Shown here piece by piece: positions 32,340 to 38,300 of a DNA stretch of 64,000 nt. The position numbers are program-made. Position 1 is the stretch's first letter. Each line of letters begins with the position of its first letter. The stretch is from Pseudomonadota bacterium (GTDB lineage: Bacteria; Desulfobacterota; Desulfobacteria; Desulfobacterales; RPRI01), in assembly GCA_043825875.1 (NCBI GenBank), contig JBDRRF010000096.1, positions 20,891 through 84,890 on the forward strand, given 5' to 3'.

Positions 32340-35300
32340 TAGGTGAGCCACTTTCAAAACGTTTCAGTTTGGTCAAGCTCAAGGCGGGCGAAAATTTCAA
32401 CCGCAGGAATACATTGAGTATTTCGAGGATAGCGCTAATGCTTCACTTCGTGCGAAATTTGAGCCCAACGCTTAAGATCGGCCAAAATGGGGCGTGTTGA
32501 AACTGGCTCAGGTGTTAAGTTTGGCAATCTGCTGCTTTGCCAGGGACATAGATCACTTGAGTTTTGATACGATAAATTCAGCCGTCTTTTCAGCTGATAC
32601 GCCAAAGAGATCATCCAGTTCGATCCAGTTCAGATAATTGTCATCCCAGGGGATGCTGTTTTCCTGAACAATATTTTTTATATGATCATATTTTCCGCCA
32701 AGGGCTTTAATTTTTACAGGAAGAGGCACATTTTCTTTAAACGAAATATTTAACAAAAGAAGGTGTTCTATAATATTGGAGCGTTGAGGAGAAGATGATA
32801 TAACAGGAATTACAATTATGCTGCGATTATCCTTTCTTCCTTTTCCTATATAAACATTGCCGCTTTGGACAATAATTTTTTTTGAGCCCTTAAGACGGGT
32901 ATCCGATTCCACCCTTGATGGAATTGATTTTAATACGCCTTCTTTTTTTATTACTTCAATAGAAGCATCTTCAGTAAGTTCTCCAAGCAGATCCAGCCCT
33001 CCTATCTTATAAAGAATATAACCATTAATATCCGAAACAATTTCCTGTAGATTTTTTAATACTATTATATTTTTGTTTATAAGCTGGGACGGATTTAAAC
33101 TATTGGAATTTAACACATCAAACAAAATACCGTATAGTTTTTCGCTTATACGGCTAGTTCCTACAGTAACTGTTTTAGCCTGATGCTTTATCGCATCTAT
33201 AGGCCTTATCATAAGGTTTATAGATTCGCCCAGGAATTTAAAAAGGGTATCTATCATGTTTTTTGCAGTTCCTTTTATCCCGAAATCAAGTTCAAAATCG
33301 GAAACCGGAAGCTTGCCCGAAAGATACTTGCATAGTAAAATAAGACTTAAAGCTGCATCAAACCCAAGGATTGAAGGAAGTTGTTTTTCAGCTCTTCTTC
33401 GCCTGAACTCATTATAAAAATAAGCTATTTTTTCTCTAAATGTTTTCTCAAGAATCAGTTCATAGATATCTGTACCCTTTTTGAGCTGCTCATCTATAGT
33501 ATTTTGCAATTCTTCTCTGAACTTGTATATAAAACTTGAGCCTTCGTTTATCGACAATGCTGCATAATATCCCCAGATATGTCCCGCAAGGGTGTTTAAT
33601 ATAGGCGCCAGGTGCTGGCCAACCGCAGGAACATAAAAAACATCTTCAGCATACTGCTCAAATCTTTCCTCTCCTTCATCCGCAATAACAACCGGAGCAG
33701 CTTTATGGGCTTTGAATATGGCAGTATCTTTTACTATATCTCCGATTACATTTCCTCTTGTGCCAGCACTGCATATTATAATTAATGGTTCTGATGAAAG
33801 GTCTATATGTTTTTTATCTTCCACATAATCAGACGATATTGTTTTATAACACAATTCACTTAATTTTATTCTTATTTCATCAGCAGAAGCCTTGTTCGGA
33901 CCACTGCCGACTGTTGCCCAATAAGTTTTAGTAACAGCAAGCCTTCTTGCTGATTTTTCTATCGCTTCTTTCATCGAAAGTACTTTTCTCATGTGCGAAG
34001 ATATTTCGAGAAGACTTACAACCTCATCCGATACAAAATTGCCGTTTCTCCTCCCATTAATTTGAGCTATAAAAAGGCCAAGAACTGCGCCGGCAACAAT
34101 TTGGCAGTAAAAAGCTTTTGTTGATGCTACCGACATTTCAATATCTCTGCCGCTGCTGGTATAGATAACACCATCAACCTTAAAAGCTATATCCGAATCT
34201 CTCCTGTTTACAATTGCAAGAGTTTTAGCGCCTCTTTTTTTTACCATTTCTACAGCGCGGTTAGTATCTGTTGTTGTTCCGGACTGGCTTATTGCTACAA
34301 CAAGAGTATCCGACATGCTGGTTGATATCTCTTCGGAATCGAGCATAAATCCGCTAAGTTCCGAAGCTTTATGTGCCCCAATATGAATCTGTGGATCATT
34401 TAGGTAGTAATTAAGAATATCTGAACAAGCCAGTGCAGCAACTCCGGCTGTTCCCTGGCCTGCAAAAAGAATCCGTCTTATTTTCTTTTCGCTAAAAGCC
34501 TTTTTAACAGATTCAGGAAATTCTTTTTCTGAAAGAAAAGCAGAATACTTTTTTCCGTCAGCACTTGTTTTCCAACGATTTAAAAGAGTTTTTTCAACCG
34601 ATAAAGGCGATTCCGATATCTCTTTTAAAAAGTAATGTGGATAATTCTGACGGTCTATATCTCTTGAAGTAATGCCGGTATGCTTTAAATCTTTATCTTC
34701 GATACAAACTGGCATTTTATCATAATACATTGCTTTTATACCGGAAATACCGCCACAAGATTCCTGGGACAATATAAATATTTGCCCTTGTGTGCTTCCG
34801 TTATTGCTTTGTACAATTTTATCGCCTTCCATCTTGATATAATTTTGAGTCTCTTCTACGAATCCGTAAACTTCGGATGCAGGCATGTAGCTATCTTTTC
34901 CGATTCCTATAAAAAATGCCTGTCCGCTTCCCTTATGTGCAAGATAAATTCTTCCCGGGTCAAGATTAGTATGCATTGTTATGGCATGAGATCCCTCAAA
35001 ATCATTTACGGCAAGACGAAATGATTCTTCAATATCAAACCCTTTGCTTAAATATTTTTCAATCTGATGCGGTATAATCTTGGTATCAGTGGTTATCTCG
35101 CTACCAAAAGAATTGCCGCAACTTTCATATTCCTTTTTGAGTTCAAGATAATTATCGATATCACCGTTTAAGCACACATGTATTATGCCTTGTTTCCATG
35201 AACCGAATCCGGCTTTGCTTCCATCAACCGGATGACAATTCGCTTCCGTTATTGCACCCACCGAAGCCCAGCGGGTATGAGATGAAACTGTGTGATATTT

Positions 35301-38300
35301 GTTTTTAAAAGACACGAGTATTTGCAGAATACGGTCATCTTTAATCTGATTTCGCAAAAAATTTATATTGTCTCCAAGGCTTCCTATCTCTGCTGCTACT
35401 TTATAAACAAGAGCCACACTGACAAGAGATTCCGCTGCTTTTTCTTCTGTTCTGCTTATTGATATCCCGCCATTTAGCAGGATATCGCAGCTTGAACGTT
35501 CTTTTAAGCTTTTTGCCAGCTTCTTTTTTGTGATTTCTTTTTCAAATTTATTATATTCCCCGGTATCTAAAACAAACATCAATGAAATACCGGCTGAATC
35601 ACGGCCTCTTACTTCAAGCCGGTCCATACTGTTAAACACTGCATTTATATTTTTATAGATGGTAACAGATGAAAAATTGAAATTATTATCCGCAGCGCCT
35701 ATCAGATTGTAGATCTTTGAAACATTGTGTCCGATTTCGTTTGAAAGAATCCATGAAACATCTTTAAGATCTTCAATTCGTTTTGATATTGTTTCAACTG
35801 CCGAAGGCTCAAGAACTCCCATTTTTGCTGCAAGGATTTTTGATTCCGAATCAATAAATTTGTTTATTCGTTTTGAAAGCTCAATAATCTTGTTCTGAAT
35901 ATTTTTGTTTTCAAATATTTCAAAAAAGCATTCATTACTTTTTAATTCCCGTACATTTGCAAGCAGGGATGCGACCATATCTTTGCCGCAGAAATAATTT
36001 TCATCTAAAGAAAATTTGTTTTTTACGCAAAGTTCAAATGAACGGGACTCAATTTTTTCTATGCTATTTTCAAGAAAGGCAATATCAATATTTGCGGCAG
36101 GTTTATTACTTTTATTAAAAGAAATAATACACGCAATTCCGCAACATAAAACATTTTTAGGGCATGGAAAAATAATAATAGAAAAATCAGGGGTATTTGC
36201 CGGGTCTTTTCCAAAATAAACATCGGCTAAAAGCAAAGCCGTCATTCTTCCAGATACTTTTTTCATGAAGCCGGAAAACATATAGTAATATTTAGATTTT
36301 ATTATTTTATTTTTAAAATATTTGATAAGGTGCATAAATTTATAACTCCTATACACAAAACGATCTCAGATTAAAAAACCCTAATGGTTCAGATACTTTT
36401 TTTATCAATAAATTTTAATATCTTATTTATATCTTCGGGTTTGTCCACACCTATGCTTTCATACCTGGTTAAAACAACATGCACAGGAATGTCATTTTCA
36501 AGCAGTCTTAGCTGCTCAAGCTTTTCAGCTGCTTCAAGATTGCTTGGCCCCAAAGAAACAAATTTTACCAGAGTATTCATCCGGAATGCATATAATCCGA
36601 TATGGCCATAAAACTCCCCATCCTGACCGTCACGATAACATGGAATTGCCATACGCGAAAAATACAGGGCGTTTCCTGTTTTTGAAAATACCACTTTTAC
36701 CTGATTAATATTTCCGGCTTCATTATTTTGGATCTTTCTTGCAAGAGTTGAAACAAGTATTTTTGGGGATGCAAAAGGCTTTACTATTTGTGTAAGCATA
36801 TCAGGGTTAAGAAGCGGCTCATCTCCTTGTATATTCACAATTATGGAATCATCGGAAAGATTTAATATTTGAGCAGCTTCCAAAACCCTGTCTGTTCCGC
36901 TGGGATGGTCTTTTCTGGTTTCAACTACCGGAACATCAAGGGCTTTTGCGGCAGAAACGATGCGCTTGTCATCTGTTGCAAGAACAACCTTTGAAAGTTC
37001 CGGACATTTTCTTGCATTATTAAATACATGCCAGAACATAGGCTTTCCCGCAATATCGGCAAGAGGCTTTCCAGGAAATCGGGTTGATTCATAACGAGCC
37101 GGAATAATACCGTAACATTTATATTGTTTGTCCATTTATATTTTATTTATGAAAATTTATGAGAAAATAGGTTCATTGATTTGCTGTACCTTAACTTCCA
37201 ATACATTTGAGCTATCAAATTCATATCTTAAATTATTCAAATAAGCAAGAAAGCCGTCAAAACTAAAATATTGACGGCTTTTTAAAATTTCTTTTGAATT
37301 TACCATGGAGGCACTAAATGTATGATAAACATTTCTCAAATTTTTTAATAAATTATTTATCTCTGAAATCGATCAGATTATAGGAAGCAAAAAAAGATGC
37401 TTTTATAAAGCTTTATATATAATACATTTGACAGAGTTGTAAAAAGAGTTCTATACAAGAAACGAGAAAAAAAATATCAGTGAAGTTATTTAAATAGAGA
37501 AAAATATATTCGATTTAAAATGAAAGTCCTTTTAGTAAGACCACACGCATATCTGCCAACCTCACGGTGGCTTCAGTCCATGTTGTTGCTTGAACCCTAC
37601 GCTCAGGAACTTATTGCCGGAGCTATACAGCCCCCACATGATGTAAAAATCTGTGATCTGGCAGTTGAAAAACACCCGATAAAAGCGTTTACACAAGTAC
37701 TGAAAAAATACCATCCCGACTTTATTGGTTTCGGAGGCTTTTCCGGGCAATATCAAATCAATCGGAAACTGGCGGGTATATCTAAAGAGATACTGCCTGA
37801 TGCTTTGACTTGCCTTGGCGGAATACACGCTTCCAGTTATCCTACAGATTGCAAGGCTCCGGAGCTATTTGACCTCATTGTTAGGGGAGACGGGGTTTCA
37901 GCCATTAAGGTCATCTTAAAAGCACTGGAAAACGGAAAGCCTGTTCCTGAAAGTGAATGGATTATACCCACAAATTCTCCAAATTTTGACCACCTGGCTT
38001 CCCAGACACCGCCACCGATTCATCCTGATGGTATTAACACCCGTCCTAGGCGCGATCTGATAGATATATCGAACTATTACTGCATCTGCTACGGCGAACC
38101 CAAGCAGAAGATGAAAACTCTTTTTCCAAGAATTGCTTGTGTGAGAACAAGTGTGGGGTGTCCGAACAGATGCAGTTTTTGTGTTGTTCACTTTCTTGCA
38201 AATGGCAAATACCTCCAGCGCAGCATAGAAGATGTAGTTGATGAGATTGCATCACTTCCTCAGGAATACATCTATTTTGTTGATGATGAAACTTTTATAA

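What a model noticed while it worked through the whole genome (the two positions that open the first line are those of the whole stretch)
32553..36335. Sole GlmS is a 1260-aa giant with an internal catalytic Cys behind a conserved leader, large inserts and an extra C-term [...]
The genome has no canonical ~610-aa glucosamine-6-phosphate synthase; its only GlmS-like gene encodes 1260 aa. The Ntn Cys-Gly (C65-G66) lies behind a conserved leader that must be cleaved for glutaminase activity. A ~160-aa helical insert splits the glutaminase domain, a ~110-aa helical insert precedes the catalytic-lysine tail (HQAKTVTV, K1054), and a ~200-aa domain follows it.
Evidence so far: TIGR01135 finds nothing over the cut-off in the genome; the best hit is this gene. 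58 of 61 order genomes carry the giant form (some cut by contig ends); the one with a canonical 614-aa frame (G007) lacks it, and 2 have no match. The C-terminal part occurs in only 4 of 51 phylum genomes. Across 120 homologs C65, G66, HTRWA, NGDIDNY, SQSG and AKTVTVG are conserved; the Cys-Gly motif lies at positions 18-103 in the 113 where it was detected, and leader residues G42, P49, S52, F56, P57 are >=90% conserved in a 34-sequence alignment. Models match E. coli GlmS: glutaminase domain prob 1.0; isomerase part Z 28.9 with model residue 1051 at E. coli 598.
(Added by a program. Inside this text positions count along the whole contig: contig position 20,891 is position 1 of the stretch shown here. 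"Call 12" and the like, gene names such as g00115 and contig names such as C1 are that model's own, and its searches are not shown. The text may have been shortened before it was handed on; [...] marks where a part breaks off. The agent that wrote the report below was given it as the finding of a first reader that could run no searches.)

Follow-up and report, generated by a model that had tools for sequence, protein, structure and literature searches.

The report
Double-length GlmS made as a proenzyme
This sulfate-reducing bacterium makes its cell-wall amino sugar with a twice-normal-size version of the enzyme GlmS, whose catalytic cysteine is hidden behind a 64-residue leader that most likely has to be cut off, and which ends in an extra, possibly sensor-like domain.

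Summary
Confirmed: window 32553-36335 (-) encodes an intact 1260-aa protein, the only GlmS-like gene of a 99.8% complete genome. Models superimpose on E. coli GlmS (C65 on Cys1, Z 30.2; isomerase half Z 44.6); catalytic residues are kept in 67-68 of 68 divergent members. It has displaced canonical GlmS in Desulfobacterales (canonical in 1 of 81) and sits beside a stand-alone GlmU-acetyltransferase-like gene in some relatives. Correction: the leader is not family-wide. Leaderless Met-Cys forms dominate outside one clade (30 of 41 representatives; Planctomycetota, Acidimicrobiaceae). The leader was gained once and lost about six times, each loss putting ATG directly before the Cys. That argues the mature enzyme needs a free Cys, so leadered forms are probably cleaved, likely by themselves as in PurF (inferred). 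The leader is a basic amphipathic helix plus an invariant Pro at -8. The C-terminal domain looks GAF-like (weak support) and hangs on the catalytic C-tail, a plausible allosteric sensor. GlmU is split in this order; the idea that giant GlmS supplies acetylation was rejected. This scan noted the family before on other DNA; no paper found. New variant of a known enzyme; nothing tested biochemically.

The parts
32553..36335 (-). Gene for the 1260-aa long-form GlmS (with stop codon)
36346..36350 (-). Shine-Dalgarno-like AGGAG, 10 nt before the ATG at 36335
   Evidence: consensus match only
36144..36335 (-). Leader, residues 1-64 (probable propeptide)
36231..36332 (-). Basic amphipathic helix of the leader, residues 2-35 (candidate membrane-binding segment; inferred)
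   Evidence: helix in model; hydrophobic moment above shuffles in 59 of 63, net positive in 63 of 63
36144..36221 (-). Conserved leader core, residues 39-64: (V/I)YFG(K/R)...(I/V)FFP, Pro fixed 8 residues before the Cys
   Evidence: two short strands in model
36141..36143 (-). Cys65, structural equivalent of E. coli GlmS Cys1
   Evidence: model 65..555 aligns to 1xff 1..238, Z 30.2, rmsd 1.9; invariant in 68 of 68
34662..36143 (-). Class II (Ntn) glutaminase domain, residues 65-558, interrupted by two inserts
35640..36119 (-). Insert 1, about residues 73-232, helical bundle
   Evidence: only generic helical-bundle matches, Z up to 10.7; no Pfam match
35301..35573 (-). Region with insert 1b (about 65 extra residues between the R26- and R73-equivalent motifs)
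33546..34661 (-). Isomerase part, two SIS subdomains, residues 559-930 (S683 Q684 T688, K824, E827, H843)
33198..33545 (-). Insert 2, about residues 931-1046, helical
33153..33197 (-). C-tail equivalent with K1054 and T1057, internal instead of terminal
   Evidence: model residue 505 (=1060) aligns to E. coli 608; low pLDDT at 1053-1065
32556..33152 (-). C-terminal domain, residues 1062-1260, GAF-like topology, near-invariant S1140 R1141 L1148 G1150 K1152 D1169
36389..37135 (-). kdsB (CMP-Kdo synthetase), 53 nt upstream on the same strand; context only

Best explanation
The gene encodes this organism's glucosamine-6-phosphate synthase (glutamine + fructose-6-phosphate to GlcN-6-P), a member of a long-form GlmS family (1130-1260 aa) that has displaced canonical GlmS in Desulfobacterales. 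Shown: fold, catalytic residues, sole copy, displacement, linkage to other UDP-GlcNAc genes. Inferred (about 0.8): it is made as a proenzyme; the leader core docks on the glutaminase domain through its FP motif and the bond before Cys65 is cut, most likely by Cys65 itself as in PurF, freeing the alpha-amino group. Inferred (about 0.4): the basic amphipathic helix binds the inner membrane, at least before cleavage. Inferred (about 0.5): the C-terminal domain is a GAF-like ligand-binding module; because it is fused to the C-tail that closes the sugar site and forms the ammonia channel, it gives protein-level allosteric control, with a phosphorylated metabolite (UDP-GlcNAc or GlcN-6-P) the first guess. 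The helical inserts are probably the scaffold for it (untested).
For: Fold: glutaminase model aligns over all 238 residues of 1xff, C65 on Cys1; isomerase model to 4amv Z 44.6, rmsd 2.2. Residues named as catalytic or ligand-binding for human GFAT-1 in PMC7000685 (passages) have counterparts C65, R243, R355, W356, H368, N390, G391, Q684, T688, K824, E827, H843, K1054, T1057, each in 67-68 of 68 divergent members. Sole GlmS; glmM present, no PF01182 deaminase found. Giant and canonical forms did not co-occur in any genome examined: 1 of 81 order genomes canonical, and it lacks the giant; 0 of 5 giant-bearing phylum genomes canonical. No glmS follows glmU in L198 or L186, where relatives L201 and L202 have glmU-glmS. 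A stand-alone GlmU-acetyltransferase-like gene lies next to the giant gene on the same strand in L076, L077, L078, L080, and within 7 of 166 loci. Leader: Pro(-8) uses all four codons in 64 of 64; 22 different codons precede the Cys; all 30 leadered rows fall in one clade, support 100; all 14 leaderless loci have ATG directly before Cys, 13 with an SD motif, against 6 of 66 at that place in leadered genes. P1 is never V, I, T, L or charged in 66. Autocatalytic propeptide removal is documented for PurF (PMC7056826, passages). GAF-likeness: element order in the model, hhalign P 0.004 local, 0.008 global, reversed control 0.45, three named GAF proteins among Foldseek hits.
Against: No activity, processing or expression data. 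The score is far below the GlmS family cut-offs. The Ser that binds the sugar phosphate (E. coli S303, human S377) is Ala in 68 of 68, Tyr28 is Arg in 68 of 68 and His77 is Val or Asn, so ligand binding and domain coupling differ. P1 is Pro in 2 of 66, awkward for self-cleavage (my judgement). No mature-domain position clearly co-varies with the leader (3 weak columns), so a docking site is not shown. GAF support is weak: hhalign probability 2-9%, Foldseek E 0.1-0.14 with ranges not shown, no Pfam, PDB-sequence or Atlas match. Two genomes of 94% and 96% completeness show no GlmS of either kind (G040, G061). Trees are FastTree only.
Confidence: 0.7

Rival explanations
1. Same enzyme, but the leader is removed by a separate cellular protease, making activation a regulated step.
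For: The leader is long (40-69 aa, median 52), the P1 residue varies over nine amino acids including Pro, and residues 61-63 are poorly ordered in the model.
Against: The Pro-to-Cys spacing is fixed, P1 avoids beta-branched and charged residues, and class II amidotransferases are described as cleaving their own propeptides (PMC9140057, PMC7056826; passages). No signal-peptide-like hydrophobic stretch next to the Cys (sequence).
Confidence: 0.12
2. The leader is never removed; the glutaminase site is blocked and the enzyme uses free ammonia or works only as an isomerase or deaminase.
For: No direct sign of cleavage; the leader is modelled with pLDDT 70-87 as part of the domain.
Against: All glutamine-site residues are kept in leadered forms as in leaderless ones; every loss of the leader puts the start codon exactly before the Cys.
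Confidence: 0.07
3. The enzyme aminates a different sugar phosphate, for example for LPS or Kdo modification, and GlcN-6-P comes from elsewhere.
For: S303 equivalent is Ala throughout; a sugar aminotransferase and an iron alcohol-dehydrogenase-like gene lie upstream in 30 and 35 of 133 loci and kdsB in 10 (their likeness to Kdo8N genes kdnA/kdnB is recalled, not tested).
Against: No other GlmS in the genome or in 80 of 81 order genomes; other neighbourhoods are unrelated to Kdo (holB-ricT-metG-PBP in 34-60 of 133); linkage to the GlmU acetyltransferase-like gene.
Confidence: 0.06
4. The extra modules supply the N-acetyltransferase step missing from the truncated GlmU of these bacteria.
For: No full-length GlmU in 81 order genomes nor in the 13 leadered-giant genomes of the phylum sample; those 13 also lack the archaeal-type stand-alone acetyltransferase.
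Against: A 403-aa protein resembling the GlmU acetyltransferase half is present here and in 13 of those 13 genomes; giant GlmS co-occurs with full GlmU in G159 and G254; the C-terminal domain has neither GNAT nor beta-helix topology.
Confidence: 0.03
5. The leader is an annotation artefact and translation starts at or just before the Cys.
For: 14 of 80 relatives do start there; an out-of-frame ATG overlaps the codon before Cys65 in this genome.
Against: In 66 leadered loci the codon before Cys is never a start codon; the leader is open and conserved as protein with synonymous change; the out-of-frame ATG is not conserved.
Confidence: 0.02

Closest known systems
Bacterial GlmS, glucosamine-6-phosphate synthase (E. 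coli; PDB 1xff, 4amv, 3ooj, 2j6h; TIGR01135, NF001484)
   Same: Ntn glutaminase plus two SIS subdomains in the same order; Cys1, R26, R73, W74, N98, G99, D123, S347-Q348-S349, K485, E488, H504, K603 equivalents (E. coli numbers read from the alignment, K603 recalled).
   Different: Twice the size; 64-aa leader; inserts of about 150, 65 and 110 aa; the C-tail is internal and carries a 200-aa domain; S303 to Ala, Y28 to Arg, H77 to Val/Asn; below family cut-offs.
Propeptide-bearing glutamine-PRPP amidotransferase PurF (B. subtilis, Arabidopsis GPRAT2)
   Same: Class II amidotransferase whose catalytic Cys is exposed by autocatalytic removal of an N-terminal propeptide; some members have it, others do not (PMC7056826, passages). 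This genome's own PurF has such a leader.
   Different: Different second domain and reaction; the PurF propeptide is described as short, while this leader is 40-69 aa with an amphipathic helix and a conserved core; no sequence likeness tested or seen.
Eukaryotic GFAT (human GFAT-1, PDB 6r4e)
   Same: Same fold and chemistry (Z 43.2 and 27.4); precedent for protein-level feedback by UDP-GlcNAc (PMC7000685, passages).
   Different: [quoted passage not shown]
GAF domains (PF01590, PF13185)
   Same: Order of helices and strands and the register of G..V..G, SI.VP and LLL motifs in a global profile alignment of 119 columns.
   Different: Not significant by profile probability (2-9%); the loop between the last strands is much shorter; no ligand known.

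Membership tests
GlmS / GFAT (EC 2.6.1.16) | Class II glutaminase domain followed by two SIS subdomains | tested here: met
GlmS / GFAT (EC 2.6.1.16) | Catalytic residues Cys1, Asn98, Gly99, Lys485, Glu488, His504, Lys603, Thr606 | tested here: met
   C65, N390, G391, K824, E827, H843, K1054, T1057 in 67-68 of 68
GlmS / GFAT (EC 2.6.1.16) | Complete sugar-phosphate site (Ser303, Ser347, Gln348, Thr352) | tested here: inconclusive
   S683, Q684, T688 kept; Ser303 position is Ala in 68 of 68
GlmS / GFAT (EC 2.6.1.16) | Free N-terminal Cys in the mature protein | not testable with these tools
   Cys is residue 65 of the primary product; processing inferred from leaderless relatives
GlmS / GFAT (EC 2.6.1.16) | Glutamine-dependent formation of GlcN-6-P | not testable with these tools
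   only genomic evidence
TIGR01135 equivalog (canonical bacterial GlmS) | Score above the curated cut-off, about 610 aa, ending at the C-tail | tested here: not met
   255.9 bits against 418.05; 1260 aa, 206 residues after K1054
Propeptide-processed class II amidotransferases (PurF type) | Translated propeptide directly before the nucleophilic Cys | tested here: met
Propeptide-processed class II amidotransferases (PurF type) | Autocatalytic cleavage | not testable with these tools
   inferred only
GAF domain (C-terminal domain) | GAF fold or profile match | tested here: inconclusive
   hhalign P 0.004-0.02, probability 1-9%; weak Foldseek hits; no Pfam hit; the domain could not be folded and searched alone
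glmS ribozyme regulation | Rfam glmS riboswitch upstream | tested here: not met
   only a tRNA reaches an Rfam gathering score in the window

The most novel reading that the evidence does not exclude
A bacterial GlmS controlled wholly at the protein level: made as a membrane-targeted zymogen that activates itself by cutting off (and perhaps keeping as a bound anchor) a 50-60-residue leader, and gated by a fused GAF-like sensor that pulls on the catalytic C-tail in response to UDP-GlcNAc or another metabolite, as the entry enzyme of a rewired UDP-GlcNAc route with a split GlmU and a new stand-alone acetyltransferase.
Probability: 0.25. Interest if true: 0.8.

Novelty: new variant of a known kind. 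Interest (0 to 1): 0.58.

Why it matters
GlmS is an essential, well-studied cell-envelope enzyme thought to end at its catalytic C-tail, to expose Cys1 by Met removal, and in bacteria to be controlled mainly at the RNA level (PMC10087520, passages). A family of hundreds of clusters in several phyla breaks the first rule, and one clade, which includes nearly all Desulfobacterales, breaks the second. It offers a direct test of how a propeptide is gained and repeatedly lost on an Ntn enzyme, with natural leaderless controls, and a candidate for ligand-sensing feedback in a bacterial GlmS. It also explains why these genomes look GlmS-less to standard annotation, and exposes a split GlmU with an uncharacterised acetyltransferase candidate.

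Tried and rejected
Acetylation by the giant enzyme: raised by the truncated GlmU, rejected after finding the 403-aa GlmU-C-half-like protein in 62 of 81 order genomes and 13 of 13 leadered-giant phylum genomes. Internal or frameshifted start at the Cys: rejected. Lipoprotein, Sec or Tat signal: rejected by inspection, no hydrophobic core or conserved lipobox before the Cys; no predictor was run. glmS ribozyme: none. C-terminal domain: no Pfam family, no PDB sequence match, no usable Atlas hit among named clusters, no paralogue in the genome, IclR comparison P 0.05; the wide structure search listed only isomerase-domain matches down to Z 8.9 and barely tested it. Leader and inserts: no credible Pfam match. 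Co-variation of mature residues with the leader: little found. Complex prediction of leader with glutaminase domain: tool not available, no result. IQ-TREE run did not finish; FastTree used. Literature: ten full-text searches returned no paper on this family; the library lacks most subscription papers. In PMC11887813 one supplementary file was searchable, with no hit; its proteome tables were not seen and might show expression or membrane fractionation.
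Full report
Observation. Window 32553-36335 (-) is an intact frame of 1260 codons from an ATG with AGGAG 10 nt upstream. Pfam finds GATase_6/7 and SIS; the GlmS models score best but below cut-off (TIGR01135 255.9 against 418). 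In the genome (99.8% complete) nothing passes that cut-off and this gene is the top hit. The two class II amidotransferases of 610 and 541 aa are asparagine synthases, a 489-aa frame carries PurF-type motifs, and no PF01182 deaminase was found. Relatives named are mostly Desulfobacterales (Desulfonema, Desulfobacter latus, Desulfamplus magnetovallimortis, Desulfobacula, Desulfatibacillum).

Anatomy. AlphaFold models of residues 1-560 (pLDDT 91.7) and 556-1260 (88.0) were built from alignments of 80 and 79 loci. The first aligns to all 238 residues of the E. coli glutaminase domain 1xff with residue 65 on residue 1 (Z 30.2, rmsd 1.9). The second aligns to 4amv with Z 44.6, rmsd 2.2, model residue 505 (1060) on E. 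coli 608. In 117 of 121 members where all anchor motifs were found, median spacings are 177 residues from Cys to the R26 equivalent (E. coli 25), 110 to R73 (47), 470 to K485 (412), 229 to K603 (118; minimum 56, not inspected) and 207 after it (5) (E. coli numbers from the alignment, K603 recalled). Insert 1 matches only generic helical bundles (Z up to 10.7).

Catalytic machinery. [quoted passage not shown] Their counterparts C65, R243, R355, W356, H368, N390, G391, Q684, T688, K824, E827, H843, K1054 and T1057 are present in 67-68 of 68 divergent family members. Three family-wide changes stand against a plain copy: the phosphate-binding Ser303 is Ala and Tyr28 is Arg in 68 of 68, and His77 is Val or Asn.

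Distribution and displacement. 78 of 81 order genomes match; 77 have the long form (some cut or frameshifted), G007 a canonical 614-aa frame, three nothing (61, 94 and 96% complete). Canonical GlmS passes its cut-off in 1 of 81 but in 171 of 201 phylum genomes. The C-terminal domain was found in 16 of 201 phylum genomes with one query and in 3 more of 5 probed with a profile; 0 of 5 such genomes tested hold a canonical copy. A profile search gives 335 clusters at 50% identity; named members include Planctomycetota and Acidimicrobiaceae. In relatives with canonical GlmS the gene follows glmU (L201, L202); in this genome (L198) and G047 (L186) glmU is followed by an rny-like gene (named from its N-terminus, not scanned) with no glmS between. 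Common neighbours in 133 loci are metG (60), a penicillin-binding protein (55), ricT (44), pyrG (38), an iron alcohol-dehydrogenase-like gene (35), holB (34), a sugar aminotransferase (30) and kdsB (10). This is displacement of the ordinary enzyme by a distant homologue.

The leader. Of 80 full loci, 66 have a leader and 14 start Met-Cys; of 64 readable named loci, 61 and 3 (16 of the 80 were cut or unreadable); of 41 full-length distant representatives, 11 and 30. All 30 leadered rows of the deep tree lie in one clade of support 100 that also holds 8 leaderless rows; the 30 rows outside are leaderless. The 80-locus tree needs 8 changes, 7 forced by strong branches, one of them the split from the outgroup. 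The simplest history is one gain and about six losses (FastTree, long-branch outgroup). The leader is coding sequence under selection: Pro at -8 in 64 of 64 with all four codons, Phe at -9 in 61, Gly42 in 51. Its first half is a helix, net positive in 63 of 63 and more amphipathic than its shuffles in 59 of 63 (start codons chosen by rule, not measured). The residue before Cys is C 24, N 10, F 6, Y 6, S 6, G 6, A 5, P 2, H 1. All 14 leaderless loci have ATG directly before the Cys, 13 with an SD motif, against 6 of 66 at that place in leadered genes. Selection thus seems to demand a free N-terminal Cys whenever the leader goes, which implies cleavage when it stays. Self-cleavage of a propeptide is documented for PurF (PMC7056826, passages) and stated for class II amidotransferases in general (PMC9140057, passages). 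Against: P1 Pro in two, and no clear docking signature in the mature domain.

The C-terminal domain. The model gives two helices, a long hairpin, two short helices, three strands and further helices, the order of a GAF domain (recalled). Profile comparison with 17 and then 50 GAF sequences gave P 0.012-0.02 and 0.004-0.008, with a colinear global alignment, probability 1-9%; reversed control P 0.45, IclR P 0.05. A Foldseek search of viral models with the 705-aa model listed three named GAF proteins (probability 0.54-0.72) and a T holin (0.95; its GAF-like fold is recalled), all at E 0.1-0.14 and without ranges. Pfam, PDB sequences and the Atlas gave nothing. GAF-likeness is therefore a lead at about even odds. 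S1140, R1141, L1148, G1150, K1152 and D1169 are kept in 65-68 of 68, which suits a binding site for an anionic ligand. The domain hangs directly on the C-tail, whose ordering closes the isomerase site in E. coli (PMC10087520, passages) and which is the least confident part of the model. That geometry is the basis for the allosteric-sensor proposal.

Pathway context. GlmM is present. GlmU is only the uridylyltransferase half here and in the order (0 of 81 over cut-off, 62 of 81 with a hit), while 112 of 201 phylum genomes pass the cut-off. I tested whether the giant enzyme fills the gap. An archaeal-type stand-alone acetyltransferase occurs in 54 of 201 phylum genomes but 5 of 81 order genomes, and not here. 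A 403-aa protein resembling the GlmU acetyltransferase half (50.9 bits on TIGR01173 positions 238-427) occurs here, in 62 of 81 order genomes and in 28 of 201 phylum genomes, among them all 13 with a leadered giant and 15 others. It lies beside the giant gene on the same strand in four loci and within 7 of 166. Giant GlmS also co-occurs with full GlmU in G159 and G254. The acetylation idea is rejected, and the linkage supports a role in UDP-GlcNAc synthesis. The activity of the 403-aa protein is itself untested.

Known and new. It works like GlmS and keeps the architecture and catalytic residues of the GlmS/GFAT family, but fails the canonical equivalog test. Databases label members 'SIS domain-containing protein' or the GlmS name. 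Ten full-text searches found no paper on it; subscription literature is mostly not covered, and proteome tables of PMC11887813 were not visible. I stated my reading before looking; eight earlier notes of this scan on other genomes describe the same family alike and are not independent evidence. Verdict: real, a new variant of a known enzyme, interest 0.58.

Noticed in passing
L198:3913-4659 (G000:C38) and L275:1000-2208 (G000:C49): GlmU is split: a 249-aa uridylyltransferase-only gene and, elsewhere, a 403-aa protein resembling the GlmU acetyltransferase half with an unexplained C-terminal part; in the phylum sample it is largely complementary to full GlmU and to an archaeal-type stand-alone acetyltransferase.
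   Followed up: partly
L255-L264 (for example L256:313-1104): A 257-283-aa stand-alone archaeal-GlmU-type acetyltransferase in 54 of 201 phylum genomes, mostly those with short or no GlmU. In the order 3 of its 5 holders are leaderless-giant genomes; may be chance or binning.
   Followed up: partly
proteins P0239 and P0269 (1545 and 1539 aa): Highly diverged GlmS-like proteins with the same C-terminal domain (hhalign probability 98.7), degenerate glutaminase and SIS motifs and about 70 residues before a Cys-Ser-Val-Gly-Gly motif (by eye); possibly a second leadered or repurposed family.
   Followed up: partly
proteins P0126, P0127, P0131: P0126 and P0127 carry about 280 further residues after the C-terminal domain; P0131 has part of the domain behind Kelch-like repeats, perhaps a chimera.
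   Followed up: no
G040 and G061 (no locus): Two order genomes of 94% and 96% completeness show no GlmS of either form with these queries.
   Followed up: no
L086:2231-4057 (G007): The one canonical glmS in the order follows atpC directly, and no glmU hit at E 1e-30 or 403-aa protein was found in that genome.
   Followed up: no
L059 (G005:C41:28436-28606): A 154-aa frame about 7 kb downstream of the giant gene matches residues 1189-1245 of the C-terminal domain at 39%.
   Followed up: no
L026, L028, L039, L040, L044, L049 upstream of the start codon: Several independent leaderless genes share an AGGAT(G/T)T-like start region also seen before the leader ATG in some leadered genes, as expected if the leader was deleted between the old start and the Cys.
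   Followed up: partly
window 37520-38953 (+), 40637-41476 (-), 24488-24560 (-): A B12-binding radical SAM gene nearest to HpnR but below cut-off, a weak HNH-like ORF beside ssb, and a tRNA.
   Followed up: no
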